Source: an uncultured Chloroflexia bacterium (GTDB lineage: Bacteria; Chloroflexota; Dehalococcoidia; DSTF01; JALHUB01). From it: DNA of 64,000 nucleotides. Of this stretch, positions 19,557 through 39,132 are shown piece after piece (position 1 is the stretch's first letter; each line of letters starts with the position of its first letter). Location: NCBI GenBank assembly GCA_963842845.1, contig CAWJHZ010000005.1:1308-65307 (forward strand), in the 5' to 3' direction. The notes under the pieces are model-generated. The model worked only from the letters and a program-made list of their open reading frames with translations, did not search any database and was not told the origin of the DNA. The translations under genes and the position numbers were made by a program.

Positions 19557-20249
19557 TCAATAATTATTGATACTTGTTGATGGGATAATAACCTTCATCG
19601 CTATTACATTCAGGCTTATGAGATACCCGTCAAGGTCATATTTCGGGATGGCAGCAGCACTATTATCCTCGAATCCTTTTGGGAGGAAATCTTGCCATCG
19701 GTATCGTTTTACATCTACGAACCCGTGTTTCTCAAGATACCGTCGAAGGACAGTGAAATCAAAGGCGCATCCGTGTTTATCATAGGGTGTTTTGTGTCCA
19801 CCGACGATAGCCCCCCATAATCGCTCTAAATCTATTCCCTCACTGTACATTTTGACGGTCTTCTCAAAATCGCTGACAGCGACCCGCAAGATGCCCCCTT
19901 GCTTGAGAACCCTGTAACATTCAGATAATGCCTTATCTAGTTCTTCGTTGCGGCTGAGATGGTCAAGAACATGAGATGCGTAGATTTCATCAACAGAACA
20001 ATCATCAAATTTCAAATCAAGGATATCTATCTTCTTGAAAGCGCATCCATTTTTCGCTATCTGCTCTGTTACTCTTATATTTTCCGGTGAAACAATATCG
20101 CAATTAATCCATGGTTCAGGAAGTAATTTTTTTCCGCATCCGATGTTCAAACGAACCTCTTTTTTGTTGCTTGGGCAATCTGGATTCTCACAATAAGTTG
20201 TGTTTGTCATCTCTTGTCTGCAATACGCGCAATAAATACCTGAGAACAT
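19557..20249 (-). CDS. class I SAM-dependent methyltransferase with an N-terminal Cys4 knuckle
   Basis: LNIGCGKKLLPEPWINCDIV (motif I) ... VLKQGGILRVAVSD. Confidence 0.7.
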   Translation of the reverse strand: MFSGIYCAYCRQEMTNTTYCENPDCPSNKKEVRLNIGCGKKLLPEPWINCDIVSPENIRVTEQIAKNGCAFKKIDILDLKFDDCSVDEIYASHVLDHLSRNEELDKALSECYRVLKQGGILRVAVSDFEKTVKMYSEGIDLERLWGAIVGGHKTPYDKHGCAFDFTVLRRYLEKHGFVDVKRYRWQDFLPKGFEDNSAAAIPKYDLDGYLISLNVIAMKVIIPSTSINNY

Positions 20250-20467
20250 TATACTGCCTCCTCACCTAAAACTTCATCTATAAACTGAACAACTTCCCCA
20301 TATCCTGGGCCGTATCCAGCATATTCTTTTTTATATTCTTGCAATAATGTTTTTACATCTTTAATTGCTTGTGTATAATAAAACTCAAACATCATCCATT
20401 CATGTGCTGAATGCATTGTATCTGATTGGACTTTTGGTGGTTTTAAATCTTTTAAAGTTTTTTCCAT
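20249..20467 (-). CDS. hypothetical protein, 72 aa
   Basis: ORF; ATGA coupling. Confidence 0.4.
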   Translation of the reverse strand: MEKTLKDLKPPKVQSDTMHSAHEWMMFEFYYTQAIKDVKTLLQEYKKEYAGYGPGYGEVVQFIDEVLGEEAV

Positions 20468-21597
20468 TATAACGCCTCTTTTATTTTATCACAAATATAT
20501 CTCACATCGCTTTTTTCGAGTCTCGTGTGCATCGGGAGCATAATCCCATGTTCATAGAGGTAGTTTGCGTTAGGGAACTCGTCTTTCTCGTACATCAGAT
20601 GTTTCCAGCAGGGTTGCCGATGCAACGGATAGATTGCTTCATGGGTCTGAACACCGTTTTCCTCAAGATGTTTCATAACCTTCTTCTTATCATCAACCAG
20701 AATAGGACATCGTAAGGCAACATGATTGCTTCTAAGGTTTATATGCATCATTTTCACTTGAGAAGGCATAAAATCCTCGTACCATTTATAGATGGTTTTT
20801 CTTTTCTGTATCAGAGCAGACATTCTTTCGAGTTGAGCGTAACCGACCGCGCATTGCATGTCCGTTATCCTGAAGTTCATACCTATTTTTTCATGCTCAT
20901 AAGAACCACTTTGTATCCTCCCTTGGTTACGAAGATATTTGAGATTGAGATATGTTTTTTCATCATTGGTAACGACGACACCACCCTCCCCCATGATAAT
21001 GTGTTTATCAGAGAAAAAAGCAAAGATACCGGCATTACCGATTATTCCTACATGCTGGTCGTTAGTTACTACCTGTTTCTCAGAGGTTCGTTTGTTGAAC
21101 ATTAAATATTTTACGCCAAGACCTTGTGCTGCATCCTCCATGACAAGGAGTTTATTTTCCTTCGCTAAATTCATCAAAGGTTCCATATCAACAGACTGCC
21201 CGTAGAGATGAACTGGGATTATCGCCTTGATGTCAAACTCTTTTAGGATTTTCTTCATTTCTTTGACATCTATCTGCATTGTTTCCTTGTCCACATCGCA
21301 GAACACTGGTTTTGCTCCAAGAAACGGGAGGACGCTTGCTGTCGCATTGAATGTGATGTCAGGAACAATCACGTAATCCCCTTTTTTTATTCCAAGAGAA
21401 TATAAAGCCATGTAGATAGCAAGAGTGCCGTTTGGCGCGAGAACCGCATATTTCGCCTCAGTGATTTCCTTTATTTTCTCAAGGAACAACTCAGCGTATT
21501 TTCCCTCAGTAATCCACCTTCTTTTGAGGCAGTCTTTCACGTATTTTCGTTCTCGTCTGCCGATATCAGGCTCAACCTGTCTTATTTTGTAGCTCAT
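20467..21597 (-). CDS. DegT/DnrJ/EryC1/StrS-family PLP-dependent sugar aminotransferase
   Basis: LAPNGTLAIYMAL...DYVIVPDITFNATASV...AIIPVHLYGQ; typical length of 376 aa. Confidence 0.85.
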   Translation of the reverse strand: MSYKIRQVEPDIGRRERKYVKDCLKRRWITEGKYAELFLEKIKEITEAKYAVLAPNGTLAIYMALYSLGIKKGDYVIVPDITFNATASVLPFLGAKPVFCDVDKETMQIDVKEMKKILKEFDIKAIIPVHLYGQSVDMEPLMNLAKENKLLVMEDAAQGLGVKYLMFNKRTSEKQVVTNDQHVGIIGNAGIFAFFSDKHIIMGEGGVVVTNDEKTYLNLKYLRNQGRIQSGSYEHEKIGMNFRITDMQCAVGYAQLERMSALIQKRKTIYKWYEDFMPSQVKMMHINLRSNHVALRCPILVDDKKKVMKHLEENGVQTHEAIYPLHRQPCWKHLMYEKDEFPNANYLYEHGIMLPMHTRLEKSDVRYICDKIKEAL

Positions 21598-21695: not shown

Positions 21696-22061
21696 TCAAC
21701 CTGTCTTATTTTGTACTTCATTTTTTTCCTCAATCTCCTTTATTCTAACTTTTAAAAACTCTTCAATATCTTGAAATCCTCTGCCCCAATCATTTATACA
21801 TCCATCAATACATAAAAAACTTTCATCAGAATCATATTCCGCTATTTCAAAAGAATTATTTGCGGGAATTGTATTTATTACAATCCCAGGTAATTCTTTT
21901 TCACCGAAGCGATATAAAGTTCCCCCTACACAGCTATTATATATTGGGTCTGCTTCATAAAATTTATTTCCATCAATATCAATATGTTCTACAATAGCCC
22001 ATGCGATTATTGGATTTAAATAAAAATACTTACTTTTTCTGATATCATCTATTGTTTTCAT
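21696..22061 (-). CDS. hypothetical protein, 121 aa
   Basis: ORF only. Confidence 0.45.
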   Translation of the reverse strand: MKTIDDIRKSKYFYLNPIIAWAIVEHIDIDGNKFYEADPIYNSCVGGTLYRFGEKELPGIVINTIPANNSFEIAEYDSDESFLCIDGCINDWGRGFQDIEEFLKVRIKEIEEKNEVQNKTG

Positions 22062-22065: not shown

Positions 22066-22410
22066 TCATCTCTTATCTGGCATATTCATCCACTTTACAT
22101 AGTTACGGGTTGTCTCATCCACGGTGTTCTTTTCTTCTTTTGTTACACCCCATTCCATCATAATGCAATCGGTCTCCGCTACCATCATGTGAATCGTGTT
22201 ATGAGGGATGAAAACAGACATCCCTTTTTTCAGGGTCATCCATTTATCATCAAGGAGAATGTTCACTGTCCCCTCAATCACCACTACATATTCATCGTTC
22301 AATAGATGGTATCCGCCGCCACGAGCGCAACCTGCTTTCGTAGTGTAAATCATCAGGTCTTTTTCAGGTACTGAGGGGGATAACATGCATCTCCCCTCGC
22401 TTGTCTTCAT
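22066..22410 (-). CDS. cupin-fold sugar 3,4-ketoisomerase (FdtA/WxcM-like)
   Basis: Cupin motifs RGGGYHLLNDEYVVVIEG ... VFIPHNTIHMMVAE. Its position between the aminotransferase and the formyltransferase supports this call. Confidence 0.6.
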   Translation of the reverse strand: MKTSEGRCMLSPSVPEKDLMIYTTKAGCARGGGYHLLNDEYVVVIEGTVNILLDDKWMTLKKGMSVFIPHNTIHMMVAETDCIMMEWGVTKEEKNTVDETTRNYVKWMNMPDKR

Positions 22411-22433
22411 TGATTTTCTTCATTTCTAACATT

Positions 22434-22772
22434 TTATTTTCCTCCTTTTTTACTTAAACCATATTTGTTCTTGAGATATTCGTTTCTTGCACGAAGAAGC
22501 ATCTCCTCCCCTTGATAATTATTCATATGTTTTGTGTTACTTCTAACTGGTTCTGGTGTGTCTGAGTTTAAATCAACCATTAACATAGGATATGTTCTGC
22601 TTTCAGTTTTATTATAATGTATAATGCAATATTTAATCGAGGTAACATCTCCACCAAGGAGAACTGACGGGTTTTTTTCTATGAATTTCGCTACATCTTC
22701 ATCGTAGAAGCCATGCTCAAGCAGAAAAACCTCTTTCTGCAAATCTCGGTACGACATTTTCTTGTAGTTCAT
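22434..22772 (-). CDS. hypothetical protein, 112 aa
   Basis: ORF only. Confidence 0.4.
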   Translation of the reverse strand: MNYKKMSYRDLQKEVFLLEHGFYDEDVAKFIEKNPSVLLGGDVTSIKYCIIHYNKTESRTYPMLMVDLNSDTPEPVRSNTKHMNNYQGEEMLLRARNEYLKNKYGLSKKGGK

Positions 22773-23035
22773 TTCATTCCTCCGTTGTAGATAGGGCAGT
22801 TCTTCTCACCGACACACTGACCCTTAAATATCTCTTCGTAAGTAATTTGTCTACATGTTTCTAATCCCTCCCTTAGATATTTAAATGGGCATGGGTGGTC
22901 TTTTATCCATTGCTCCTTTGATTTCTTGAGTTCCTCTACGAAACAGCTACCACAAACTTCCCCTTTGAATTGGATGTAATGCTCCTCTCCATCAGGTATT
23001 TTTTTCCCACAAATTTTACATATTTTTATCTTCAT
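22769..23035 (-). CDS. Cys-rich zinc-ribbon protein
   Basis: MKIKICKICGKKIPDGEEHYIQFKGEVCGSCF...CP. Immediately preceded by the shared 40-bp leader. Confidence 0.5.
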   Translation of the reverse strand: MKIKICKICGKKIPDGEEHYIQFKGEVCGSCFVEELKKSKEQWIKDHPCPFKYLREGLETCRQITYEEIFKGQCVGEKNCPIYNGGMK

Positions 23036-23085
23036 TGAGTAATCTTTTCTTCCTGTTCCTCGTGCCTCAAGCATTTTTTCATTTT

Positions 23086-23586
23086 TTACATTCTCGAACA
23101 TAGTTTATCTAACTCCTCTTTTGTTTTTGGTGCAAACGCTAATGCTCTGATTGTTTGTTTAAACAACTGAAAAAGATAATAATGCCCGATATCGCCTAAC
23201 TCTTGAGCCTCAACAGGAACCGACATCAAAGGAATATTCAACACACGTAAAACAGTTCCGCTATCAATACCCTTATCAACTACAAACAATGATACCCCCC
23301 ATTCCTTTAATTTCCCTCTTTTTAAATCATGTAACCCTCGTGCGTAATTCCCCCAATCACCATATGTTGGCAGTGGACCAGGATGAAAACAATACCAGGG
23401 TTTATCTTCAAGGGTTTCTTCATCAATTAACCAAGAATATGAATAGCATACTCCGATATCAAACGAGAACTCCTTCGGACCATATTGGCTTGTGCCAACA
23501 ACATACTTTATTTCTGGAGTATATTGATTAAGGAAATTAATTAATTTCACTGCATGTTGCTTGCTTGTCATGATGCCGTATATCAT
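23086..23586 (-). CDS. formyltransferase-family protein, Fmt N-terminal-domain-like; putative sugar N-formyltransferase
   Basis: FHPGPLPTYGDWGN (compare HPSLLPKYRG) and GVSLFVVDKGIDSGTVL (compare tih.vd...DtGpIl). Confidence 0.55.
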   Translation of the reverse strand: MIYGIMTSKQHAVKLINFLNQYTPEIKYVVGTSQYGPKEFSFDIGVCYSYSWLIDEETLEDKPWYCFHPGPLPTYGDWGNYARGLHDLKRGKLKEWGVSLFVVDKGIDSGTVLRVLNIPLMSVPVEAQELGDIGHYYLFQLFKQTIRALAFAPKTKEELDKLCSRM

Positions 23587-24503
23587 TTTTTCCTCAGTAT
23601 GAATGATTGAATCGACGAGTAGTTCCCTATCGGTGGTAAAAAGGAGAAGAATTTGACGAACTCAGTGTTTTTCTTTTGTTCTCCTTTTGTTACTAACGCA
23701 TGAAGCACCCGAGAAACAAAATAATGACTACTCAGGAAATTATTTGGTTCACAGCTTGTGAATTTAGTTCCCATCCATTGAAAAAACAGTTCTTTATCAA
23801 GGTATTTATTGAATGGTGCTTCATGTAATTCTGGTAAACCACATTCCACCCGTGCTTTATTATTGTTGATTAACCCATCGGTGAATGCCTCTATCATCAG
23901 GTAGTATCCGCCTGGTTTTAGAACCCTGTGTATCTCATCTAACGCTTTTTTTTGTTCCCCCCATGAGAGGATATTCTGGATGCAACGCTGAGTATAGACA
24001 ATATCATAGAAATGACTATGGCCCTCTGAAGAAGTAGCATTTTTTTCTATGAATACACAGTTTTTAAGGTTTCTTTCTTTTGCACGGTCAATCAATTCTC
24101 TTGTGATGTCAAAACCGAAGAAATCACAATCATATTCCTTGTATTTTTCTGAGAGTTTTTCGAGTGTGTATCCATCTCCGCATCCGACATCTACCACTCG
24201 TTCTGTCCATGGCTTCATGTGTCTATCGAAAAAGTTGAGTATCACATCAGTTTCTTTCTGCCTAGCTATCTCATCATCTAAAACACAGATGTTTCCATAT
24301 TTTTCTACTGCTTCTTTATAACGATTCATTTGGTTTTCCCCTTTTTTCTCCATAGATAAAATAAAATTTACAGTATTATATTCATGTTTTTTCAACCAAG
24401 ATAAAGGAACCCAATCTTCTAATGCTTCTGGGATATCTTTTAATGCTTTATTTTGTGATAATGCGCGATAGATTTCCTTTCCTGTTTTAATATGCTCATC
24501 CAT
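23583..24503 (-). CDS. class I SAM-dependent methyltransferase
   Basis: VVDVGCGDGYTLEKL ... VLKPGGYYLMIE. Confidence 0.75.
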   Translation of the reverse strand: MDEHIKTGKEIYRALSQNKALKDIPEALEDWVPLSWLKKHEYNTVNFILSMEKKGENQMNRYKEAVEKYGNICVLDDEIARQKETDVILNFFDRHMKPWTERVVDVGCGDGYTLEKLSEKYKEYDCDFFGFDITRELIDRAKERNLKNCVFIEKNATSSEGHSHFYDIVYTQRCIQNILSWGEQKKALDEIHRVLKPGGYYLMIEAFTDGLINNNKARVECGLPELHEAPFNKYLDKELFFQWMGTKFTSCEPNNFLSSHYFVSRVLHALVTKGEQKKNTEFVKFFSFLPPIGNYSSIQSFILRKK

Positions 24504-24621: not shown

Positions 24622-24948
24622 TCACCATGTTGTTTGTGGGTAATTTCCTTCAATATTTATACCATCATAATATCGTGGTATATACCAATCAACAATAGTT
24701 GCTTTAATCAGCGTATCAATAGTCGGTGGTGTTTCTTTACCACATTTTTTGCATTCGTGAAAAAAACAAGGCAATAAACCTTCAAGACCTATGGAGTCCA
24801 TGTAGTCTTTTGTTTCATAAAACCAACCTTTTTTAATGTCGCTTATGTTTTCTTCAACCGTGAAATCAGGGTTATAAATAAAAAAATTATGAGTAACCCA
24901 CTCATGGCGGCAAAATACTTTTTTTATTCTGGCTAATAGTTCACTCAT
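24622..24948 (-). CDS. hypothetical protein, 108 aa
   Basis: ORF only. Confidence 0.4.
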   Translation of the reverse strand: MSELLARIKKVFCRHEWVTHNFFIYNPDFTVEENISDIKKGWFYETKDYMDSIGLEGLLPCFFHECKKCGKETPPTIDTLIKATIVDWYIPRYYDGINIEGNYPQTTW

Positions 24949-29959: not shown

Positions 29960-30095
29960 AAACAGGTGAAGAATGTGGGATGCATTCATCAAGCAGTTTC
30001 CTCAATGTGAGAACTGCCCTTTTCTTGGTTTTGTGATAGATAGCATGGGTCCGTTGGAGTTCACGTTTATCTGTAAGAAAAAAGAATGTATTTAC

Positions 30096-30169
30096 GTGGA
30101 TGGCAGGATTTGAACCTGCGTACAATCGGTTAACGGCCGATTACTTGAACCTGACTCAGCTACATCCAC
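30096..30169 (-). tRNA. tRNA-like gene, anticodon GUU (Asn), with atypical C33 and a weak D-stem
   Basis: 7-bp acceptor GTGGATG/CATCCAC; T-arm GCAGG-TTCAAAT-CCTGC; anticodon arm ATCGG-CCGTTAA-CCGAT; 74 nt; no CCA encoded. Confidence 0.5.
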
Positions 30170-32285: not shown

Positions 32286-34007
32286 CTATTTCTCTGCTTC
32301 TACAATCACAGAAAGCGACGGGAATGTATTTATTGTCTGCGTCTGAATCACTTTTGACCTTGATGAAAACGGTGATGCTATTTGTATGTTCTTGAATCCT
32401 GTTTCCTCAAGTAATTTAATTAAAGCATCTTCATCATAGAGTGTTTTATGGTTTGCATATAGTAATTCATGGAGTGCTTCAGCATCATCATGAGCTCGTT
32501 CCACCCCTACATTAACATAGCGGTATTCTTTTATTTCTCCATTAAGATATTTCCGTGTTATTTTAGCGGTATCTGGTACGCTTATCCTGATGATTCCTCC
32601 TGGCTTCAAAACACGGCAGCATTCTGTTAGAAACTGTTTACCTTCTACTCTAGTAAAATGTTCAAGGAGATGTGAATGGAAAATGATGTCTACAATGTTA
32701 TCCTCGCAGGGTATCCCTTTTGATATGTCTATTTGTCTGAAACGGTATGCCTGTGTATCCGCAAATTGTCTCAAATCAATGATATCTATGTTCACCCATC
32801 CATAATAAAACATGTTCTTGTATGACCCGATGTTTAATTTATAGAGGTCGTCAATATATTTTATTACGCCGTTTTCTCCCCATAGTCCCGGGGCCATTGA
32901 TGTTGGTGGCTGCTGATACGGGTTTTCATATTCTACCGTCCGTGGATACTCTATTTGAATAGGATACTCAGGGGCGATTGATTTGAATTTATCTAACCAA
33001 AACTGCTTGTTTTTCATCGTCACATGCGTTATATCAATATCTTTATCTGCCTCAACATACCCATGGTCAGTGAAATGAATCGCATGCAGTCCTCTTTTTG
33101 ACACGCGTACCATTTCCTGTATCACGGAATCAATTTTATCCTCTGGTATGTGTTCAAGGAGGTTACTGCTAAAACAAAGGTCTATTGCTTTGTTTGCGAA
33201 TCCCCATGGTGTAATTGTTATATCGCAAACCCTCATGCTGTCTGTTGCTCTGGTGTGCCAACAATGATGACTAATGTCAAGTCCTGTTACTTTTATCCCC
33301 TCGTTCTCAAGCACACGGATGACATATCCACGACCGCAACCGACATCAAGGACGCTCTCTGGTTTTAATTTCGCTATAAACCGTGCTGTGGAATAATGGG
33401 TGCAGAAATCACGATATTCTCTATATCCGATGGTTCCGTCCTCGAAATACTCACGTTCAAAAACTTCTCCTTGCATTTTAAACACCTCGATAATCATGTC
33501 TGTCTTGGAGACAGGATGTGGTAACACCGTTACTTTAAAGCCTGCTTCTCCAAATAATTTTTTTGCGTATTCAGGGCTGAAACCAGCTTTATGGCAACCA
33601 CCATAATTCGGGAACTCTTGGCTACCAAAAATACGCTCAACTGTCCCTTTATTTACTCCTTCTTCAACCACACTTCTGCATTGTTCAAGGAGATTCGCTG
33701 TAATAATCACGGCTCTCCCATTTGGTTTCAGGATACGATGAATTTCTTTAATGAAATCTATTGTTTTTCTCCATTCAACATGCTCTATAGTATATTGACA
33801 GAAAACGCCATCATACTCCCCTGTTTTCAACGGCCAGGGGAAACATGAAAGGTCATGGATGATGTCAACAGTCGGCTCTTTGATAATGTCGACATTCGGG
33901 CGTATGATAGGGTTTTTCCCCCCCCCAAGCTCTATTGTTTTTCCTGAAAACGGGAGGATGTAACTATATTGGTTTTTAGTAAGCGGAACGTATGGCATTA
34001 CAAACAT
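32286..34007 (-). CDS. methyltransferase with three tandem class I methyltransferase domains
   Basis: Three independent motif I/post-I sets: IELGGGKNP...ILKPNGRAVI; VLDVGCGRGYVIRVL...VSKRGLHAI; YYGWVNIDII...VLKPGGIIRISVPD. Confidence 0.7.
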   Translation of the reverse strand: MFVMPYVPLTKNQYSYILPFSGKTIELGGGKNPIIRPNVDIIKEPTVDIIHDLSCFPWPLKTGEYDGVFCQYTIEHVEWRKTIDFIKEIHRILKPNGRAVIITANLLEQCRSVVEEGVNKGTVERIFGSQEFPNYGGCHKAGFSPEYAKKLFGEAGFKVTVLPHPVSKTDMIIEVFKMQGEVFEREYFEDGTIGYREYRDFCTHYSTARFIAKLKPESVLDVGCGRGYVIRVLENEGIKVTGLDISHHCWHTRATDSMRVCDITITPWGFANKAIDLCFSSNLLEHIPEDKIDSVIQEMVRVSKRGLHAIHFTDHGYVEADKDIDITHVTMKNKQFWLDKFKSIAPEYPIQIEYPRTVEYENPYQQPPTSMAPGLWGENGVIKYIDDLYKLNIGSYKNMFYYGWVNIDIIDLRQFADTQAYRFRQIDISKGIPCEDNIVDIIFHSHLLEHFTRVEGKQFLTECCRVLKPGGIIRISVPDTAKITRKYLNGEIKEYRYVNVGVERAHDDAEALHELLYANHKTLYDEDALIKLLEETGFKNIQIASPFSSRSKVIQTQTINTFPSLSVIVEAEK

Positions 34008-35082
34008 CCTTGTAGCGACTTTGTATTTTCTCCCAGGTATATTTTTCTGCGGTTTTCCGTGCGTTTTTCCCCATTCTATCAATTTCTTCAGGGTTGTCCT
34101 TGAAGTATTGCAGTTTCGTTAGTATGCTCTCAGCATCGCGTCTGGGAACGACAAAACCATCTTTGCCGTCTGTGATGAGTTCTGACATCCCTGCTCCTTC
34201 TGACACGATTACAGGTCGGTTGAATGCCATCGCTTCAAGCGGTGTGATTCCAAAACCTTCAATGACGGAGGGTTGAACATAGACGCTTATTTTACTATAG
34301 AACTCAGGTAAAGATGTTTCACCGAGGACATGAATTGTCTCGTTTGATTCTAAATTAGCTGCTTCTCGTCCACCAATTATTAATTGCATGTTGTTTTTTT
34401 GTATTGCGGTTAATAGATATATTATTCCTTTGTCTTTCCCGAGGCTACCGAAATACCCTGGCATGAACTCCGCTGGTGGTTCAGGTATCTCAGATGGAAG
34501 ATAGCAACCATGTGGTATCACTATTGGTTTTTCTGTAAGTTTTGCCTCATTCATGATATATTCCGCTGATGAATGAGAATGGACTATTACTTTATCCGCA
34601 AGTCGTAGTTGTTTCAAATATAACTCAAGAAGATATTGATTTGTAAGGTGGGGATAGGGATATTGATGCGGAATATATTTAAGATGCTCTTCCCTGCTGA
34701 TTTTGATATTATGCGGGGCGAGGTCACAGATGACTTTGCAGAATGATTCTTTTTTAAGGGTTCTTACTGTCTCACCGAACGGGCATCCGTAGGTTATCGC
34801 TAGGTCAAAATCCTTATATCGTACCATTGAATTTGCGAAGTAATCATAGAAAAAAGGGTCATCATATCCAAACTGCCGAGGGTCAAGACATTGAGCATAA
34901 ATGGGAATTACTATATCCGCTATTGCAGATAAATACCTTCCATCTTGAAAATGCTGATTGGAGAGAATAAGCTCTACTGTTGATATGGATTTTAATACTT
35001 CCAGCAGATTATAGCTGACGATGCCGCCTCCGCTGTATTGGTTCACACCAGAATTAGTGATGAGTGCTGATTTCATTTCCAC
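33976..35082 (-). CDS. GT4-family (GT-B) glycosyltransferase
   Basis: C-terminal EGFGITPLEAMAFNRPVIVSEGAGMSELI signature. Confidence 0.85.
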   Translation of the reverse strand: MEMKSALITNSGVNQYSGGGIVSYNLLEVLKSISTVELILSNQHFQDGRYLSAIADIVIPIYAQCLDPRQFGYDDPFFYDYFANSMVRYKDFDLAITYGCPFGETVRTLKKESFCKVICDLAPHNIKISREEHLKYIPHQYPYPHLTNQYLLELYLKQLRLADKVIVHSHSSAEYIMNEAKLTEKPIVIPHGCYLPSEIPEPPAEFMPGYFGSLGKDKGIIYLLTAIQKNNMQLIIGGREAANLESNETIHVLGETSLPEFYSKISVYVQPSVIEGFGITPLEAMAFNRPVIVSEGAGMSELITDGKDGFVVPRRDAESILTKLQYFKDNPEEIDRMGKNARKTAEKYTWEKIQSRYKDVCNAIRSAY

Positions 35083-35200: not shown

Positions 35201-35536
35201 TTATCCCCCAACATAGGGTGTTTTTTCTTTCTCACCCTCTATTTTCATGGCTTCAGCGACATGAATCGTATACGTGTTTTTTAATTTCTGTGACCTCATT
35301 AATAGGTTAAGAATAAAATTAACTGATACCATATCATAGACAAGATTTTTCATCGTTGGGTGTCCATTGAAATTCTCTTTACATATCTTTTCAGTTTCGT
35401 CAGCAAGATGACGCATTACTTCTTGAAGAAGTTTATTCATCTTTTCAACATCAAAATCAAGGGTTTTTAAAATACTCTCATCCTGGAGTTGTTTCAGTTT
35501 TTTTTTATCTATCCCTATGTTGATTTCTTTTATCAT
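35201..35536 (-). CDS. hypothetical protein, 111 aa
   Basis: ORF only. Confidence 0.4.
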   Translation of the reverse strand: MIKEINIGIDKKKLKQLQDESILKTLDFDVEKMNKLLQEVMRHLADETEKICKENFNGHPTMKNLVYDMVSVNFILNLLMRSQKLKNTYTIHVAEAMKIEGEKEKTPYVGG

Positions 35537-36426
35537 TTATCCTCCTCGTTGAAATCTTCAATCTTTTTTGCTATTTCTTCATCTGATAATTTTCTCATTT
35601 CATCATCCCACAAAATAAGGGTTTCGTATCCTGCTTTTGAAAGAATTATTTTTCTAATTTTTTCAGTTCTTCTTGGAGGGGGAGAGAATGCTCCATCTTT
35701 ATCATGGAATGCTCTTCCAAAAACCTCTATTATTCTATTATTGGAATTATTTATAAAATCAGGATTTAAACCATTTATCCAAATACTTTTATTTCCAACA
35801 TATTTAAAAGGTAGTTTGTATTTCTTTAGAATGTTCTCGATTCTAATTTCTGGCTTTGTTTTATTGTCTCCATTTACATATGTCCATGGTTTTCGGTCTG
35901 TACAATTTTTTGATGCTTGCTTTCCAATACAGTCTTTTGTCTTGTGTAATCCTAATGAATTTGCTTTTACTTGTATTGAAGCATATCGATGATTTGGTAT
36001 CAACTCTATCAATTCTAATTTAGATGATGCGGCATAATTTTCAATTAGATTTTTCATCTCTTCAGCCATCCATGTTCTTGGATTTTTACTCCATCTAGAA
36101 AAACGTTCTATCTCACGTTGGTTAAATTTTTTTGATTTCTCAAATCCAACTCTTTTCGCTTTATGCTCAATACTTCGCATAGTTCTTCCAGGAAATAGAG
36201 ATATAAGTTCGCTTAGATATTTATCTGGATAATTGTCTCTTAAAATTTTAATTTCTTTTTTTGACCATTTATTCTTTTTTTTAAGACCATACTTATTTAT
36301 TTTTTGTTGTATGCTAGATATCGTTCTACTGGACAGTAGTCTCTGGAGTTCTTGATAGGAAGATGCTGTAGAAAAATATTTTTTTAATGTTTCTACTTCT
36401 TGTTCTTCCCAATGTTTATTTCCCAT
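35533..36426 (-). CDS. homing-endonuclease-like protein: N-terminal Myb/SANT-like helix-turn-helix repeats plus a C-terminal Vsr/PD-(D/E)XK-like nuclease
   Basis: C-terminus GLNPDFINNSNNRIIEVFGRAFHD...TLILWDDE is paralogous to 25784-26698. The N-terminus has two W...W...RT..S...K.K repeats. Confidence 0.6.
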   Translation of the reverse strand: MGNKHWEEQEVETLKKYFSTASSYQELQRLLSSRTISSIQQKINKYGLKKKNKWSKKEIKILRDNYPDKYLSELISLFPGRTMRSIEHKAKRVGFEKSKKFNQREIERFSRWSKNPRTWMAEEMKNLIENYAASSKLELIELIPNHRYASIQVKANSLGLHKTKDCIGKQASKNCTDRKPWTYVNGDNKTKPEIRIENILKKYKLPFKYVGNKSIWINGLNPDFINNSNNRIIEVFGRAFHDKDGAFSPPPRRTEKIRKIILSKAGYETLILWDDEMRKLSDEEIAKKIEDFNEEDK

Positions 36427-36461: not shown

Positions 36462-37574
36462 CTACCAAGTATTACCCGATAAAATTTGCTTATATAGGGA
36501 TAGATATTCCCTAGCCATCCTTTCATATGAAAACCACTCTGCGTGTCGTCTACAATCTTCTGGTCGTATCTCATCAATCCTTTTGATATAATACATAAAT
36601 TCTTCGTCACTGTTAGCGAAAAAACCATTGAAACCATGTACCGTTGTCTCGTTCCATCCACCAGATGGGCATACCACGGTTGGTGTTCCGCAGGCGTTTG
36701 CTTCTGGGACAATCAAGCCGAAAGGCTCTATGAAATGATTCGCTTGACCTGGGAGACCGGTATAGGTTTCTACGCTTGGCATCACGACCGCTTTCGCATT
36801 CTGGTACATCTCGAGTTTCTTCTCAAAAGGAACTGCTTTGCCGAGTTCACCAACAACTGATACTTGACTGCTTTTTGAGAGTTTCTCATTGATGAATTTG
36901 AGGTAATCAGGGTCTTGTCCGAAGCTGCCGCCAAGGATAAATCCTTTCATCTTGAGTTTATCGCAAATATCTATGAAACGATGAGCTCCTTTTGGAGGGA
37001 AAATACGGCTCACCCATAGGAGGTAATCTTGTTTCTCTTTTTTAAAAGGGTATTTTGTTAAATCAATGCCGTTCTGAACGCCCCTCCATATGCATCCCAT
37101 CGGGGGAGAAAACGTCCCATCTGGTTTTATCCATCGAAACTCTGTGAGATTCTTCGCATGGTTCTGTGAAACACCACAGAGATTTGCATTAAAAGCGGGT
37201 TTTTCTCTGAAGCCAGGGTCAGGGCCATGATGTGTTTTTATGATACGTCCGTTGCGCTCATTGTAGAGAGAATAAGGAAAATAATTCCATGAATGGTCAT
37301 GGAGAATATCTGCTTCAAGTAACGCTTTTTTCGCCTGAGGATTATCCATATACATCTTCCAAGCGTTGATTTCATCGACTGCCCCTGGTTGCCCTGCCGC
37401 ATAGATAAACCCATGCTGTGGCTGATACGAGCCCATAGGCGCAAAATGATGTACCTCGTGTCCATGGTCATCAAAATATTTCGCCAATAATCCAACTATC
37501 AATTCAAGACCAGCATACCCTTTCAAATCAGGATGTGATGCAAAGATTTGTGTGCTATATAGTGCTATTTTCAT
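36462..37574 (-). CDS. GT4-family glycosyltransferase
   Basis: AAGGAAGG RBS; MKIALYSTQ...; C-terminal FIEPFGLIVPEANACGTPTVV. Its start overlaps the endonuclease stop in an ATGA arrangement. Confidence 0.8.
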   Translation of the reverse strand: MKIALYSTQIFASHPDLKGYAGLELIVGLLAKYFDDHGHEVHHFAPMGSYQPQHGFIYAAGQPGAVDEINAWKMYMDNPQAKKALLEADILHDHSWNYFPYSLYNERNGRIIKTHHGPDPGFREKPAFNANLCGVSQNHAKNLTEFRWIKPDGTFSPPMGCIWRGVQNGIDLTKYPFKKEKQDYLLWVSRIFPPKGAHRFIDICDKLKMKGFILGGSFGQDPDYLKFINEKLSKSSQVSVVGELGKAVPFEKKLEMYQNAKAVVMPSVETYTGLPGQANHFIEPFGLIVPEANACGTPTVVCPSGGWNETTVHGFNGFFANSDEEFMYYIKRIDEIRPEDCRRHAEWFSYERMAREYLSLYKQILSGNTW

Positions 37575-38368
37575 ATTGCAACCTTCCTTAATATACATGG
37601 TTTTATGTTTTTAATCAATTCTTTCACTTCCCTATCTCTATACATCCCAATTTTATAGATGTCGCTTTTATCTTTTTCCCGTTTCTTTCGTTTTGCTTTT
37701 CTGATGGTTGGATGAAACCCTAATTCCTCAAGAAATTGCTTTATCATTGATAATGTTTTTTCATTTGAATTAATTATTTCTATAGCATAGCATCCGTTAT
37801 TATTTAGCAGAGAACCTTCAGATTCGTACATGCCTTGTATAAAAGCGAATTTAAATTTATCTTCTATTGCATTTTTTTGTATCCATTCTAACGGTGTTTT
37901 TTTATACCATTCTACAAATATTTTGCAATATGCTCTTGTTTTAAAGGCATCATTCCACTTTTCATTTTTCTTTTTCTCCGTAAAAATCCACCCACTGTGA
38001 GAGATTCCTATAGATTTTAATGAAGAAATGAATGCCTCTACAAAACATTTATCAGTGGAAGTAAGTTCTATTTTATAATGGTTACAACCATTTTTAGTAG
38101 GTTGTATGGATACACTACCATCTCCTTTTAATATTCCAAGTAAATAAAAAAGATTTTCTGATTCTTTTGGTTTCCATCCATCTACTGTATTTTCCCAATA
38201 TCTTAAATCTAATTTTGATAATGAAGTCTGGTCTGCTTGTTTGCGAATAAAAAAACCTGATTCGGAGAATCTTCGTTTCAAAGTATGTCTACTTATGTGT
38301 TCTTTTTTTGATATTTCAGATAAACTTAATCCAGATTCGTATTGGTTATATACAGATGCTATCTTCAT
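37571..38368 (-). CDS. free-standing LAGLIDADG homing endonuclease with an N-terminal helix-turn-helix
   Basis: Two motifs, LLGILKGDGSV and FAFIQGMYESEGSL. ATGA overlaps with the glycosyltransferase genes on both sides. Confidence 0.8.
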   Translation of the reverse strand: MKIASVYNQYESGLSLSEISKKEHISRHTLKRRFSESGFFIRKQADQTSLSKLDLRYWENTVDGWKPKESENLFYLLGILKGDGSVSIQPTKNGCNHYKIELTSTDKCFVEAFISSLKSIGISHSGWIFTEKKKNEKWNDAFKTRAYCKIFVEWYKKTPLEWIQKNAIEDKFKFAFIQGMYESEGSLLNNNGCYAIEIINSNEKTLSMIKQFLEELGFHPTIRKAKRKKREKDKSDIYKIGMYRDREVKELIKNIKPCILRKVAI

Positions 38369-39132
38369 AGTGTCAGTTTCCCGTCTAACGCCCGTCGTTT
38401 GCCAACGGGGAATAAAAGATGGTCACATTTTATGGCTGTCGCAAGATGCGGTTTAATCCCGAGTTCCCTGTTTAAACGGTCGCAGAAATAGAAATCCTCT
38501 GACATCTGCAACAATGGTTTCCCGGTGTTTTCATCCTTTCGAGTTAGCCCCCATTGGAAATAGGGTTTATTCGGGTTGCTTGCATCGAGTTTCTTAAATA
38601 ACTCTGTTTTTATCAAAAGACATCCTGCGCCCACGACATCAACTTCTACAAGAGCGTTTTTATCAAGATATGGTTTAAGCTCATTCTCAATGCTTTTATA
38701 ACTAACCATATTTTTGTTGAGGTCTTCGCCTATTTTCGCCCAGGCGCATGGCATTGGTGTCTCCTCATGTTTCTTCGCCCAGTACAATCCTGATATCAAG
38801 GGTTTGTTTTGCTGATTGGCCAGTTGAATAAGTTGAATTACTGCATCACGAGGGGGAACTACATCTGTATCAATAAAGTAAATCCATTCAGGGTTATGTG
38901 CTTTCAATATCTCCTGTACCACCATGTTCCGTGAGCAATCATATGGCATGTTGCTCCCATGAAAATACACATGGTTCCATGGTATGTTCAGATATCTGAA
39001 ACTTAATGCCCATTCCATGGTCACGATGCCAGTGTGAATGATGCCTAACCCAAGAACGGGGTTAACGCCTCCTCCCCCTTGTACGCTTGGTGTTGGTCCT
39101 GATAAAACCCCTGGTGTCTCCCAAAAAGCCAT
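38365..39132 (-). CDS. GT-A fold glycosyltransferase (DxD-type)
   Basis: IYFIDTDVV (DxD) ... SEDFYFCDRL, as seen in GT-A enzymes. Family unassigned. Confidence 0.5.
   Translation of the reverse strand: MAFWETPGVLSGPTPSVQGGGGVNPVLGLGIIHTGIVTMEWALSFRYLNIPWNHVYFHGSNMPYDCSRNMVVQEILKAHNPEWIYFIDTDVVPPRDAVIQLIQLANQQNKPLISGLYWAKKHEETPMPCAWAKIGEDLNKNMVSYKSIENELKPYLDKNALVEVDVVGAGCLLIKTELFKKLDASNPNKPYFQWGLTRKDENTGKPLLQMSEDFYFCDRLNRELGIKPHLATAIKCDHLLFPVGKRRALDGKLTL

What the first reader, a model, noticed from the sequence alone, without database searches (positions are those of the whole stretch)
19557..39132. 20-kb glycan-decoration island: a 3-formamido-deoxyhexose route, dehydrogenase, epimerase, six glycosyltransferases and five methyltransferase genes
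A cupin 3,4-ketoisomerase (FdtA-like), a DegT aminotransferase and a formyltransferase-like protein occur consecutively at 20.5-23.6 kb. In the established pathway this order generates an NDP-3-formamido-3,6-dideoxyhexose. Adding a UDP-sugar 6-dehydrogenase, an SDR epimerase/dehydratase, four GT-A and two GT4 transferases and the methyltransferases, the island encodes a heavily N-formylated and O-methylated glycan. This is probably the decoration of the neighbouring surface or structural proteins. No nucleotidyltransferase or 4,6-dehydratase start enzyme is recognisable, so the pathway may draw on host precursors.
Basis: partly seen in the sequence, partly recalled or inferred. Interest (0 to 1): 0.7.

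Follow-up and report, generated by a model that had tools for sequence, protein, structure and literature searches.

The report
Virus-borne island for formylated, methylated glycan
An uncultivated, probably viral genome carries a real 20-kb block of sugar-making, sugar-attaching and methylating genes, but its core most likely makes a GDP-linked 4-formamido (perosamine-type) sugar, not the 3-formamido sugar first proposed.

Summary
The island is real and is conserved in related metagenomic contigs. Confirmed genes: a DegT aminotransferase, a cupin, a 166-aa protein with a formyltransferase fold, an NDP-sugar 6-dehydrogenase, one SDR, two GT4 and three GT-A-like transferases. There are four intact methyltransferase genes (six domains) and one remnant. 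Three homing-endonuclease genes and a tRNA-Asn are interspersed.

The FdtA/FdtB/FdtF reading is only partly supported:
- The cupin matches FdtA only below threshold. Its nearest sugar-nucleotide relative is the Zn-dependent epimerase domain of CapF.
- The aminotransferase is closest to GDP-perosamine synthase and LegC/PseC, which are C4 enzymes.
- The SDR is 42% identical to PDB 6VO6 (from memory, the GDP-heptose C4-dehydrogenase Cj1427).
- In four distinct related contigs a GDP-mannose 4,6-dehydratase sits beside the module.

Together these point to a gmd/per/wbkC-like route to a GDP-linked 4-formamido sugar.

Two caveats apply to this genome. Its formyltransferase has Cys where 20 of 21 family members have the catalytic Asn. 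The cupin and one GT-A gene each carry a one-base frameshift in the same 9-mer, probably an assembly error.

No lipid-carrier or export genes are present. I infer direct protein glycosylation, possibly of the adjacent 1,934-aa Ser-Gly-repeat protein. This is a new variant of a known kind, of moderate interest.

The parts
19557..20249 (-). Class I SAM methyltransferase (230 aa) with an N-terminal Cys-rich motif. It is the last gene of the sugar module.
   Evidence: Pfam Methyltransf_11 E 3.5e-12. An orthologue follows the DegT gene in L004, L005, L006 and L018, and in L002. In L001 the orthologue carries an intein.
20467..21597 (-). PLP-dependent sugar aminotransferase (DegT family), full length, with the Lys-containing motif FSDKHIIMGEGG present.
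   Evidence: PF01041 E 7e-95 over 2-359/360. NCBIfam best matches are LegC 262 bits and PseC 260 bits, both below cut-off. Best PDB matches: GDP-perosamine synthase 3bn1/3dr4/3dr7 at 200-202 bits, against QdtB 137, WbpE 125 and ArnB 105-110.
21696..22061 (-). 121-aa ORF of unknown function between the cupin and DegT genes.
   Evidence: No Pfam or PHROG match.
22066..22432 (-). Cupin gene (121 aa when intact). In this assembly one extra base breaks it, so only a 114-aa ORF (22066-22410) is listed.
   Evidence: Cupin_2 E 1e-8. The true start at 22432 reads MLEMKKINEDKRGEMHVIPLST*. An independent assembly, L007, has the intact gene and differs only at this site. Family invariants are D10, R12, G13, R37, G38, G39, H42 and H81; D10, R12 and G13 lie upstream of the frameshift. 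The model has pLDDT 96. CapF is the only sugar-nucleotide cupin among the top fold matches. Among family members, PF14667 reaches 3e-7 and PF05523 reaches 4e-4, both below cut-off.
22434..23101 (-). Two small ORFs (112 and 110 aa) lying between the formyltransferase and cupin genes. They are absent at this position in L001, L006, L011, L012 and L016.
   Evidence: No significant family match. Synteny comparison. The first 42 bp of the 110-aa ORF are repeated at 40764-40805.
23086..23586 (-). Minimal formyltransferase-fold protein (166 aa), the candidate sugar N-formyltransferase. It has Cys66 in place of the catalytic Asn; His68 and Asp108 are present.
   Evidence: PHROG 9240 E 1.7e-3. PDB GART 3av3 E 9e-3, with H68 and D108 aligned. 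In family alignment A1, H68 and D108 are invariant and Asn66 is present in at least 90% of sequences, with this copy the exception. Model pLDDT 91. Foldseek top hits are WbtJ 4nv1, Rv3404c, VioF, FdtF, WlaRD and the LgrA F domain, TM up to 0.75. The Cys is also present in the independent assembly L008.
23583..24503 (-). Class I SAM methyltransferase (306 aa) immediately upstream of the formyltransferase gene, with overlapping stop and start codons.
   Evidence: Methyltransf_25 E 3e-17. It holds the same position in L001, L011 and L012.
24622..24948 (-). 108-aa ORF of unknown function.
   Evidence: No family match.
24959..25777 (-). GT-A-like (GT2-like) glycosyltransferase, 272 aa.
   Evidence: No Pfam match of its own. 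It is 40% identical to the L005 protein that carries a weak PF00535 hit, and 32% identical to the L001 protein with a faint PF10111 hit. One relative of the paralogue family carries PF00535.
25784..26698 (-). Homing-endonuclease-like gene: NUMOD3 repeats plus a C-terminal nuclease-like domain.
   Evidence: PF07460 E 1e-11. Its C-terminal ~100 aa are 37% identical to those of ORF 35533-36426. NUMOD3 genes occupy other positions in the island in L002 and L004.
26847..28142 (-). NDP-sugar 6-dehydrogenase (431 aa); substrate unresolved between UDP-glucose and GDP-mannose.
   Evidence: PF03721 E 3e-36 and PF00984. NCBIfam TIGR03026 scores 220.7 bits, above its cut-off. Best PDB match is GDP-mannose 6-dehydrogenase 1mfz at 126.9 bits, against UDP-glucose dehydrogenase 3vtf at 122.9. 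The L001 orthologue is 66% identical.
28301..28906 (+). Class I SAM methyltransferase (201 aa).
   Evidence: Methyltransf_11 E 6e-24. Orthologues occur in L001 and L013.
28973..29959 (+). Extended SDR (328 aa), the candidate NDP-sugar C4-dehydrogenase and the likely source of the 4-keto sugar in this genome.
   Evidence: PF01370 E 2e-35. It is about 42% identical over 292 residues to PDB 6vo6, E 1e-51; the next best match, UDP-xylose synthase, is only E 3e-20. The motif STCSNYG lacks the acidic residue of 4,6-dehydratases and decarboxylases (read from the sequence). The L001 orthologue (60-63% identical) has an intein inserted exactly in this motif.
30095..30169 (-). tRNA-Asn (GTT) inside the island.
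   Evidence: ARAGORN; Rfam RF00005 61 bits.
30179..30601 (-). 140-aa ORF of unknown function, next to the tRNA gene.
   Evidence: No Pfam match at E <= 0.01; it was not scanned against PHROGs.
30843..31659 (+). Second GT-A-like gene, 43% identical to 24959-25777. One extra base near 31029 breaks it; only the 235-aa 3' part (30952-31659) is listed as an ORF.
   Evidence: Paralogy. The N-terminal part (...DAEVIIIDSFYNEH...YAPPKQRT*) lies in another frame. Deleting one A restores a full-length ORF. Relatives are 267-272 aa.
31663..32013 (+). Remnant of a methyltransferase gene: C-terminal part only, with no SAM-binding motif I.
   Evidence: 46% identical to residues 72-168 of the 169-aa methyltransferase of L004. 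No Pfam match.
32286..34082 (-). Protein with three class I methyltransferase domains. The ORF is 598 aa; the likely start is at 34007 or 33998.
   Evidence: Methyltransf_11 E 2e-33 in three stretches. Orthologues (57-59% identical) occupy the same position after the GT4 pair in L004 and L017. Start candidates.
33976..35082 (-). GT4 (GT-B fold) glycosyltransferase.
   Evidence: PF00534 E 2e-29. Orthologues in L004 and L017.
35201..35536 (-). 111-aa ORF of unknown function.
   Evidence: No family match.
35533..36426 (-). Second homing-endonuclease-like gene: N-terminal DNA-binding repeats plus the same C-terminal nuclease-like domain as 25784-26698.
   Evidence: PHROG 323 E 3e-16 and PHROG 1891 (HNH endonuclease) E 9e-5. 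C-terminal domain shared with the NUMOD3 protein, E 5e-15. Absent between the two GT4 genes of L004 and L017.
36462..37598 (-). GT4 (GT-B fold) glycosyltransferase.
   Evidence: PF00534 E 1e-17 and PF13439. Orthologues in L004 and L017.
37571..38368 (-). Free-standing LAGLIDADG homing endonuclease gene.
   Evidence: PF14528 E 4e-17 in two stretches. The same neighbour sits upstream of the GT4 pair in L004.
38365..39132 (-). GT-A-like glycosyltransferase (255 aa) with a DTD motif.
   Evidence: PHROG 34859 'glycosyltransferase' E 4e-10 and PHROG 1574 E 1.5e-13. Pfam Anp1 E 1e-5, below cut-off.
11339..17143 (-). 1,934-aa Ser-Gly-repeat protein just outside the island. It is the candidate glycan acceptor; this is inference only.
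   Evidence: 258 SG dipeptides against 56 expected, spaced 6-7 residues apart. SG-rich ORFs also lie near the module in L001 and L006.

Best explanation
The segment is a conserved glycosylation island of an uncultivated, probably viral, genome of a prokaryotic host. Its core is a nucleotide-sugar module. A 4-keto sugar is made from a host NDP-hexose, most likely GDP-mannose or a close relative. In this genome the enzyme for that step is probably the Cj1427-like SDR at 28973-29959; in four related contigs it is a GDP-mannose 4,6-dehydratase. A small, probably metal-dependent, CapF-like cupin then rearranges the keto sugar; I favour epimerisation next to the keto group. A perosamine-synthase-like DegT enzyme aminates it, most likely at C4. 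A minimal 160-aa formyltransferase N-formylates the amine from 10-formyl-tetrahydrofolate. The methyltransferase that follows the DegT gene may methylate the sugar. The expected product is a GDP-linked 4-formamido-4-deoxy or 4,6-dideoxy hexose, analogous to N-formylperosamine (gmd/per/wbkC).

A separate 6-dehydrogenase supplies a uronic acid. Two GT4 and two or three GT-A transferases assemble the sugars, and four methyltransferase proteins (six domains) O-methylate the glycan. No lipid-carrier, flippase, polymerase or oligosaccharyltransferase gene is present. Assembly is therefore probably sequential and direct onto protein, in the manner of flagellin glycosylation islands. The likeliest acceptors are the adjacent 1,934-aa Ser-Gly-repeat protein and the small SG-rich proteins.

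Shown here: the gene families, the two folds, the conserved gene order, and the dehydratase in relatives. Inferred: the nucleotide carrier, the position of the amine, the cupin's reaction, the methylation targets and the acceptor.
For: - Gene families.
- Formyltransferase fold. Its family keeps Asn/His/Asp.
- DegT: closest to GDP-perosamine synthase and LegC/PseC. The same ranking holds for the orthologues in five related loci.
- SDR: about 42% identical to 6vo6. Cj1427 is a GDP-heptose C4-dehydrogenase that releases the 4-keto product (PMC10680097).
- Dehydratase in relatives: gmd-like proteins (NCBIfam 352-362 bits) lie directly beside the module in L002/L010 and L004. Their homologues do so in L014 and L017.
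- Known pathway: gmd, per and wbkC make N-formylperosamine in Brucella (PMC2698832).
- Cupin: its nearest sugar-nucleotide relative is the CapF cupin domain, which is a Zn-dependent epimerase of a 4-keto sugar (PMC5393024).
- Gene order: formyltransferase-cupin-DegT-methyltransferase is conserved, with overlapping genes.
- No lipid-carrier machinery: no Pfam match to phosphoglycosyl transferases, Wzx/Wzy, ABC exporters or STT3 among the ORFs scanned.
- Analogy: flagellin glycosylation islands combine glycosyltransferases, DegT aminotransferases, formyltransferases and methyltransferases (PMC4875605).
- Acceptor: SG-repeat proteins lie next to the module in three loci.
Against: - No enzyme here has been assayed, and similarity does not fix the position of amination within the DegT family.
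- All NCBIfam equivalog scores are below their cut-offs.
- This genome's formyltransferase has Cys at the catalytic Asn position. From memory, mutation of that Asn abolishes activity in ArnA.
- The cupin is frameshifted in this assembly.
- That 6VO6 is Cj1427 rests on my memory of the deposit name, not on a tool result.
- The window's SDR is not orthologous to the dehydratase of relatives, so the sugar made here may differ from theirs.
- If the amine goes to C4, the cupin has no obligatory role.
- No capsid, portal or terminase gene was identified in the window, so the viral nature and the 'virion protein' acceptor are circumstantial.
Confidence: 0.55

Rival explanations
1. The cupin is a 3,4-ketoisomerase that converts the 4-keto-6-deoxy sugar into the 3-keto isomer. 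The DegT enzyme aminates C3 and the formyltransferase gives a 3-formamido-3,6-dideoxyhexose, that is, N-formyl-mycosamine or a Fuc3NFo/Qui3NFo-type sugar.
For: The cupin always lies between the formyltransferase and DegT genes, and a direct C4 amination does not need it. Four of five family members give weak PF05523 (FdtA) matches, best E 4e-4. The 3-N-formyltransferases FdtF, QdtF and WlaRD are among the structural matches of the formyltransferase. From my own knowledge, the GDP-mycosamine aminotransferases of polyene pathways resemble perosamine synthases, and no isomerase is known for that route.
Confidence: 0.22
2. An Arn-like or uronate route. The 6-dehydrogenase makes UDP-glucuronate. 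The SDR oxidises it at C4, with or without decarboxylation. The DegT enzyme gives a 4-amino pentose or 4-amino uronate, which is then N-formylated as in ArnA/ArnB.
For: The dehydrogenase and the SDR are neighbours here and in L001. After 6vo6, the next best solved relatives of the SDR are UDP-xylose synthases, and ArnA matches weakly. This route would explain the absence of a 4,6-dehydratase.
Against: The SDR lacks the Ser-Glu of the STSEVYG motif that I recall in UXS and ArnA decarboxylases; it has STCSNYG. It is far closer to 6vo6 (179 bits) than to UXS (75 bits) or ArnA (41 bits). The DegT scores only 105-110 bits against ArnB. Four related contigs lack the dehydrogenase in the sequenced flanks and use Gmd instead. 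The dehydrogenase itself is as close to GDP-mannose dehydrogenase as to UDP-glucose dehydrogenase.
Confidence: 0.1
3. The island does not decorate virion proteins. It remodels the host cell envelope during infection or lysogeny (serotype conversion, superinfection exclusion), or it glycosylates the element's own DNA.
For: Phage glycosyltransferases are known to do both (review passages in PMC12619734). Cyanophages and huge phages carry DegT genes. No virion hallmark gene was found, so the neighbours cannot be tied to a particle.
Against: No lipid-carrier priming enzyme, flippase, polymerase or ligase is present, and en bloc envelope glycan synthesis would need them. No hydroxymethylase or other DNA-base-modifying gene was seen in the ORFs scanned. 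The methyltransferases are small-molecule or protein types, not DNA methylases. SG-repeat proteins co-occur with the module.
Confidence: 0.1

Closest known systems
N-formylperosamine pathway of Brucella (gmd, per, wbkC) and related GDP-perosamine routes
   Same: Relatives of this element have a GDP-mannose 4,6-dehydratase, a perosamine-synthase-like aminotransferase and a formyltransferase side by side. This window has the same aminotransferase and formyltransferase. The known pathway is described in PMC2698832.
   Different: This window has no gmd; it has a 6vo6-like SDR instead. An extra cupin is always present. The formyltransferase is about 160 aa, whereas the solved sugar N-formyltransferases it matches are about 230-270 aa or longer. 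Here it has Cys for the catalytic Asn. There is no O-antigen export or priming machinery. The carrier is a probable virus.
FdtA/FdtB/FdtF (QdtA/B/F) route to dTDP-3-formamido-3,6-dideoxyhexoses
   Same: It uses the same three protein folds (cupin, DegT aminotransferase, formyltransferase), encoded together.
   Different: The cupin does not reach the FdtA family threshold and is structurally nearer to CapF. The aminotransferase is nearer to C4 enzymes. The context is GDP-mannose-type, not dTDP-glucose-type: Gmd in relatives, and no RmlA or RmlB.
Campylobacter jejuni capsular heptose modification (Cj1427 C4-dehydrogenase, cupin C3/C5 epimerases, C4 reductases)
   Same: An SDR about 42% identical to PDB 6vo6 (Cj1427, from memory) is combined with a small cupin acting on a GDP-4-keto sugar.
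   Different: The final step here would be transamination and N-formylation rather than reduction. The cupin is a Cupin_2/CapF-type protein of 121 aa, not an RmlC-type epimerase. The substrate is unknown.
Flagellin glycosylation islands of bacteria
   Same: These are mosaic islands that combine glycosyltransferases, DegT aminotransferases, formyltransferases and several SAM methyltransferases, some fused to each other. They work without lipid carriers, by direct O-glycosylation of a surface filament protein (PMC4875605).
   Different: The carrier here is a probable virus, and the acceptor would be a Ser-Gly-repeat protein rather than flagellin. The island is riddled with homing endonucleases, and in relatives with inteins.
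Autonomous glycosylation clusters of giant viruses (Mimiviridae, chloroviruses) and glycosylated mycobacteriophage virions
   Same: Virus-encoded nucleotide-sugar enzymes, glycosyltransferases and methyltransferases decorate virion proteins with rare, partly methylated amino sugars (PMC4691112; Freeman et al. 2023 as cited in PMC12619734).
   Different: The host here is prokaryotic, judged from Shine-Dalgarno leaders. No sequence relative exists in the 50,697 phage records at DNA level, and only remote DegT relatives exist at protein level. I found no report of N-formylation in a viral cluster in the searches made.

Membership tests
Sugar N-formyltransferases (formyl_trans_N fold; WlaRD, FdtF, VioF, WbtJ, ArnA-N, WbkC) | Formyltransferase N-terminal (Rossmann-like) fold | tested here: met
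   The AlphaFold model has pLDDT 91. Foldseek probability is 1.0 and TM 0.70-0.75 to WbtJ 4nv1, the Shewanella enzyme 6v2t and FdtF 5uij.
Sugar N-formyltransferases (formyl_trans_N fold; WlaRD, FdtF, VioF, WbtJ, ArnA-N, WbkC) | Catalytic Asn-x-His ... Asp triad | tested here: not met
   His68 and Asp108 are present and aligned to GART. The Asn position is Cys66 in this copy, while 20 of 21 family members have Asn. The Cys is confirmed in an independent assembly.
Sugar N-formyltransferases (formyl_trans_N fold; WlaRD, FdtF, VioF, WbtJ, ArnA-N, WbkC) | Pfam PF00551 match above the gathering score | tested here: not met
   There is no Pfam match at E <= 0.01 for the window protein. One relative (P0013) carries a precomputed PF00551 hit.
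Sugar N-formyltransferases (formyl_trans_N fold; WlaRD, FdtF, VioF, WbtJ, ArnA-N, WbkC) | Transfer of formyl from 10-formyl-THF to an NDP-amino sugar | not testable with these tools
   This needs an enzyme assay.
FdtA/QdtA 3,4-ketoisomerases (Pfam PF05523, WxcM-like C-terminal) | PF05523 match above the gathering score (23 bits) | tested here: not met
   The window protein scores 14.8 bits, E 0.025. The best of four matching relatives is E 4e-4.
FdtA/QdtA 3,4-ketoisomerases (Pfam PF05523, WxcM-like C-terminal) | Closest structural relatives are FdtA or QdtA | tested here: not met
FdtA/QdtA 3,4-ketoisomerases (Pfam PF05523, WxcM-like C-terminal) | Conserved catalytic His pair (R-G-x-H-x-H, recalled from memory) | tested here: inconclusive
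   The family has R37-G38-G39-x-x-H42. The second His position is invariant and the first is Gly, Cys or His. No FdtA sequence was aligned here.
CapF-type cupin epimerase domain (Pfam PF14667) | PF14667 match above the gathering score (28.7 bits) | tested here: not met
   The window protein scores 17.6 bits. Four of five family members match, best E 3e-7. Several relatives carry precomputed PF14667 hits.
CapF-type cupin epimerase domain (Pfam PF14667) | Metal-binding His/Glu ligands of the cupin motifs | tested here: inconclusive
   H42 and H81 are invariant, and E47 is conserved in at least 90% of the family. Metal binding was not modelled.
DegT/DnrJ/EryC1/StrS sugar aminotransferases | Full-length PF01041 match and the PLP-binding Lys | tested here: met
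   318.7 bits over 2-359/360. The motif FSDKHIIMGEGG is read from the sequence.
GDP-perosamine synthase (C4 aminotransferase) subgroup | Amination at C4 of a GDP-4-keto sugar | not testable with these tools
   This subgroup contains the best solved relatives (202 bits), but similarity does not fix the position of amination.
Cj1427-type NDP-sugar C4-dehydrogenase (SDR) | Close homology to the solved enzyme, and an active site without the dehydratase or decarboxylase acid | tested here: met
   About 42% identity over 292 residues to 6vo6, E 1e-51. STCSNYG and YARSK are read from the sequence. That 6vo6 is Cj1427 is from memory.
Cj1427-type NDP-sugar C4-dehydrogenase (SDR) | Release of a 4-keto product, with recycling of tightly bound NADH by 2-oxoglutarate | not testable with these tools
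   Described for Cj1427 in PMC10680097. This needs an assay.
NDP-sugar 6-dehydrogenases (UDP-glucose/GDP-mannose dehydrogenase family) | NCBIfam TIGR03026 above its cut-off; N-terminal and central domains present | tested here: met
   220.7 bits against a cut-off of 189.8. PF03721 and PF00984 are above their cut-offs; the C-terminal domain is below its cut-off.
Virus (bacteriophage or archaeal virus) | Hallmark genes (capsid, portal, terminase or equivalent) | tested here: not met
   None were found among 20 proteins scanned against PHROGs and 55 against Pfam. tblastn of two candidate proteins against phage records found nothing. The indirect signs are homing endonucleases, an intein, a tRNA, fibre-like beta-helix proteins and no housekeeping genes.

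The most novel reading that the evidence does not exclude
A lineage of uncultivated viruses of prokaryotes makes a sugar not yet described. It would be a 4-formamido-4-deoxy hexose or hexuronate that keeps its C6 oxygen, because the 4-keto intermediate comes from a Cj1427-like dehydrogenase and not from a 4,6-dehydratase. Alternatively it would be GDP-N-formyl-mycosamine, made through a previously unknown GDP-sugar 3,4-ketoisomerase (the cupin). In either case the last step uses a new minimal 160-aa formyltransferase. The O-methylated glycan is displayed on a 1,934-aa fibre with about 258 Ser-Gly sites, giving the virus a mucin-like coat.
Probability: 0.2. Interest if true: 0.75.

Novelty: new variant of a known kind. 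Interest (0 to 1): 0.5.

Why it matters
Virus-encoded glycosylation is well documented for giant viruses of eukaryotes. Among viruses of prokaryotes it is documented for only a few. This island would extend it to an unknown lineage, with one of the richer gene sets seen for such a virus.

It also yields three testable enzymes. The first is a minimal formyltransferase family, very rare in public data: 8 clusters at E <= 1e-30 among 1.84 billion representatives. The second is a CapF-like stand-alone cupin. The third is a Cj1427-like SDR that may replace the usual 4,6-dehydratase. If the acceptor is the Ser-Gly-repeat protein, the system would be a compact model for dense O-glycosylation of a viral fibre. 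It would also be a source of enzymes for making rare N-formyl amino sugars.

Tried and rejected
- Megablast of the whole island against 50,697 phage records found nothing. tblastn of the GT-A 255-aa protein, a candidate structural protein and the 297-aa protein found nothing useful.
- PHROG and Pfam scans of the larger ORFs outside the island found no capsid, portal or terminase.
- Scans of GTDB genomes and IMG/VR for the formyltransferase family found no relative, so there is no host clue.
- The exact products of the window's formyltransferase, cupin and GT-A paralogue are not on record, so the name of the source record could not be recovered. Cluster look-up gave no accession.
- Attempts to confirm from the literature that 6VO6 is Cj1427 failed: the two primary papers are not held, and a text search for the code gave nothing relevant.
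- A search for the PDB codes of the other top DegT relatives gave nothing relevant.
- The best-matching isolate 'phage' record with a DegT gene (Aphanizomenon phage Yong-DA) looks plasmid-like and has no comparable island.
- Rfam found only the tRNA. There is no group I intron around the homing endonucleases.
- Considered and rejected: legionaminic or pseudaminic acid synthesis, because the scanned ORFs contain no NeuB-like synthase or CMP-transferase; and an alternative genetic code as the explanation of the in-frame TGA codons, because the conserved protein continues in the +1 frame, not in the same frame.

Full report
**1. What is in the sequence**

The window has two parts. Bases 1 to about 3550 are 69% G+C and encode an MMPL transporter fragment. 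From there on the sequence is 35-40% G+C. It is densely packed with short genes, mostly on the minus strand, and most are preceded by a strong AGGTGA-type Shine-Dalgarno motif. The host is therefore a prokaryote, and the high-GC head looks like a chimeric join.

The window comes from an NCBI/ENA contig of 73,459 bp. Contigs assembled independently from run ERR10755942 are 99.85-99.98% identical to it over 6.6 kb.

Pfam, NCBIfam and PHROG scans of every ORF of at least 100 aa in 19.5-39.1 kb give the following genes, in minus-strand reading order from 39132 down:
- GT-A-like transferase, 38365-39132
- LAGLIDADG homing endonuclease
- GT4 transferase
- homing-endonuclease-like gene
- 111-aa ORF
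- GT4 transferase
- protein with three methyltransferase domains
- on the plus strand: a methyltransferase remnant and a second, broken GT-A gene
- 140-aa ORF
- tRNA-Asn
- on the plus strand: the SDR and a methyltransferase
- NDP-sugar 6-dehydrogenase
- NUMOD3 homing endonuclease
- GT-A-like transferase
- 108-aa ORF
- methyltransferase
- formyltransferase-like gene
- two small ORFs
- cupin
- 121-aa ORF
- DegT aminotransferase
- methyltransferase

The corrections are listed under the observation check: three GT-A-like genes rather than four, four intact methyltransferase genes plus a remnant, and three homing-endonuclease genes that were not mentioned.

**2. The formyltransferase-like protein**

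Sequence evidence alone is weak: PHROG 9240 at E 1.7e-3 and PDB GART at E 9e-3. The protein belongs to a small family of 160-175-aa proteins. There are 21 clusters in 5.8 billion proteins. An exhaustive profile search of 1.84 billion representatives finds 8 at E <= 1e-30 and 38 at E <= 1e-10. GTDB genomes and IMG/VR contain none.

An AlphaFold model built from the family alignment is confident (pLDDT 91). Its best PDB matches are sugar N-formyltransferases (WbtJ, Rv3404c, VioF, FdtF, WlaRD), the formylation domain of LgrA, and GAR transformylases, with TM up to 0.75. The fold is confirmed.

The family keeps the Asn-x-His...Asp triad, but this genome's copy reads Y-C-F-H, with Cys66 at the Asn position. 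The independent assembly has the same residue, so it is not a sequencing error. From memory, this Asn is needed for activity in ArnA and is less critical in GAR transformylase. The activity of this copy is therefore uncertain.

**3. The cupin**

The listed 114-aa ORF is the tail of a 121-aa gene. The true start at 22432 reads MLEMKKINEDKRGEMHVIPLST and then hits a stop codon. The independent assembly has CTCGGT-CCTG where the window has CTCAGTACCTG, and it encodes the intact protein P0142. These are the only differences in 1,351 bp. The family's invariant D-x-R-G motif lies upstream of the break.

The family has 137 members at E <= 1e-3. Members match Cupin_2, PF14667 (the CapF C-terminal cupin, best E 3e-7) and PF05523 (FdtA, best E 4e-4). 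The last two are below their gathering scores.

The cupin is thus plausibly a keto-sugar epimerase or isomerase, but it is not demonstrably FdtA-like.

**4. The aminotransferase, the SDR and the dehydrogenase**

The DegT protein is full length. Its best solved relatives are GDP-perosamine synthases at 200-202 bits. QdtB scores 137, WbpE 125, PseC 119 and ArnB 105-110. The best NCBIfam models are LegC and PseC. All of the top relatives aminate C4.

The SDR is about 42% identical to PDB 6vo6 at E 1e-51. The next relatives, UDP-xylose synthases, reach only E 3e-20. The deposit name matches the C. jejuni Cj1427c annotation as I remember it. Cj1427 oxidises GDP-heptose at C4 and releases the keto sugar (PMC10680097). 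The motif STCSNYG has no acidic residue of the kind used by 4,6-dehydratases and decarboxylases.

The 6-dehydrogenase passes the NCBIfam subfamily cut-off. It is equally close to GDP-mannose dehydrogenase and to UDP-glucose dehydrogenases.

**5. Related loci**

Contigs carrying the formyltransferase family were fetched and annotated with tblastn.
- The order formyltransferase-cupin is seen in ten distinct related loci and in the window.
- DegT follows the cupin in seven of them.
- The small methyltransferase follows DegT in L004, L005, L006 and L018, and also in L002.
- In L006 the four genes overlap.

Two sub-lineages appear. In L004, L014 and L017 a gmd-like gene sits directly upstream of the formyltransferase. 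In L002/L010 the order is gmd-cupin-...-hexapeptide transferase-DegT-methyltransferase-NUMOD3-formyltransferase. The gmd-like proteins of L002 and L004 score 352-362 bits against NCBIfam gmd. In the window, L001, L011 and L012, a 306-aa methyltransferase precedes the formyltransferase. The window and L001 instead carry the 6vo6-like SDR and the dehydrogenase.

The SDR of L004 is not orthologous to the window's SDR. The SDR of L001 is orthologous, and it has an intein inserted in the STC|SNYG motif.

Gmd + perosamine-synthase-like DegT + formyltransferase is the gene set of the Brucella N-formylperosamine pathway (PMC2698832). This is the strongest evidence that the module works on GDP-linked manno-type sugars and that the amine is at C4.

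**6. Assembly and acceptor**

The ORFs scanned with Pfam across the window contain no phosphoglycosyl transferase, flippase, polymerase, ABC exporter or oligosaccharyltransferase. That fits sequential, direct protein glycosylation. Flagellin glycosylation islands work this way, and they likewise mix glycosyltransferases, DegT enzymes, formyltransferases and methyltransferases (PMC4875605).

Just upstream of the island lies a 1,934-aa protein with 258 Ser-Gly dipeptides against 56 expected, spaced 6-7 residues apart. Three small SG-rich ORFs lie on the other flank. SG-rich ORFs also lie near the module in L001 and L006. This makes them candidate acceptors, but nothing here tests that.

**7. Frameshifts**

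The second GT-A gene (30843-31659) is also broken by one extra base. Both breaks lie in the same 9-mer, GTACCTGAA, which occurs only three times in the window. The cupin break is absent from the independent assembly. The contig also has a chimeric head. A k-mer-specific assembly error is therefore the most economical explanation, and I treat both genes as probably intact in nature. Real variants or +1 slippage are not excluded.

**8. Is it a virus?**

No hallmark gene was found, and there is no DNA similarity to known phages. The indirect signs are:
- four homing-endonuclease genes in or beside the island;
- an intein-bearing gene at 51669-53474, and inteins in three island genes of L001;
- a tRNA;
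- beta-helix and B-repeat proteins;
- no housekeeping genes in 60 kb;
- a recurrent strong leader before putative structural genes.

I regard a viral origin as likely but unproven.

**9. Verdict**

The general interpretation holds: a glycan-decoration island that makes an N-formylated, methylated glycan. The specific 3-formamido FdtA/B/F pathway is not supported. A GDP-linked 4-formamido (perosamine-type) product is the best reading, at about 0.55. A C3 variant stands at about 0.2.

It is a new variant of known kinds of system: bacterial N-formyl amino-sugar pathways, flagellin glycosylation islands, and viral glycosylation clusters. Interest is moderate. The rare minimal formyltransferase family, the possible replacement of the dehydratase by a C4-dehydrogenase, and the Ser-Gly-repeat candidate acceptor are the parts worth following up.

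Noticed in passing
window 1-3550: This stretch is 69% G+C and carries an MMPL transporter fragment (2117-3433, minus strand). It joins abruptly to the 35-40% G+C remainder, so the contig head is probably a chimeric assembly join.
   Followed up: partly
window 11339-17143 (-), 39182-39607 (-), 41214-41657 (-), 42405-42881 (-): A 1,934-aa protein is made of V/G/S/I-rich repeats with 258 Ser-Gly dipeptides (56 expected), spaced 6-7 residues apart. Its C-terminal ~120 residues loosely resemble the 141-aa ORF at 39182. Three small ORFs on the other flank of the island are also 4-5-fold enriched in SG. None has a Pfam family match above the gathering score; the only hit is a sub-threshold DUF4437 match in the 1,934-aa protein.
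   Followed up: partly
window 22363-22371 (-), 31027-31035 (+), 39190-39198 (+): The 9-mer GTACCTGAA occurs three times. Two occurrences are exactly the sites of one-base frameshifts in island genes, and its TGA ends the upstream frame in both. An independent assembly lacks the extra base at the cupin site.
   Followed up: partly
window 23028-23069 and 40764-40805: A 42-bp repeat (95% identical) forms the 5' ends of two otherwise unrelated ORFs, 22769-23101 and 40373-40816. Both begin with ...EARGTGRKDYSM. The first of these ORFs is one of the two inserted between the formyltransferase and the cupin in this genome only.
   Followed up: no
window 51669-53474 (-); L001 326-2362, 11111-13408, 14325-16193: A 601-aa ORF carries an intein with a LAGLIDADG domain. 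In the related 89-kb contig, the orthologues of the SDR, the DegT and the small methyltransferase each carry an intein. The SDR intein sits in the active-site motif.
   Followed up: partly
window 57923-58645 (-): A further class I SAM methyltransferase (240 aa) lies 19 kb outside the island.
   Followed up: no
window 8361-10545 (-): A right-handed beta-helix protein (403 aa) and a protein with an InlB-type B-repeat (356 aa) lie upstream of the Ser-Gly-repeat gene. They look like receptor-binding or depolymerase-type fibre proteins.
   Followed up: no
window 44197-49833 (-): A run of small predicted membrane proteins and Cys- or Thr-rich secreted-type proteins: two ~140-aa hydrophobic proteins, and a 311-aa protein with DUF7107 and carboxypeptidase-regulatory-like domains. 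Several share the leader AAGGTGAAGTAAAA before the ATG. This may point to a membrane-containing particle.
   Followed up: no
L005 9033-10244: A TnpB/Cas12f-like (OrfB_IS605) gene lies in a related contig, near the sugar module.
   Followed up: no
L001 5504-7133; L002 6462-8104; L006 3416-4063: Relatives carry a hexapeptide-repeat acyltransferase, which lies next to a DegT gene in L001 and L002. In L001 that DegT is a second copy. Some members of the lineage therefore probably make an N-acetylated amino sugar as well as the N-formylated one.
   Followed up: no
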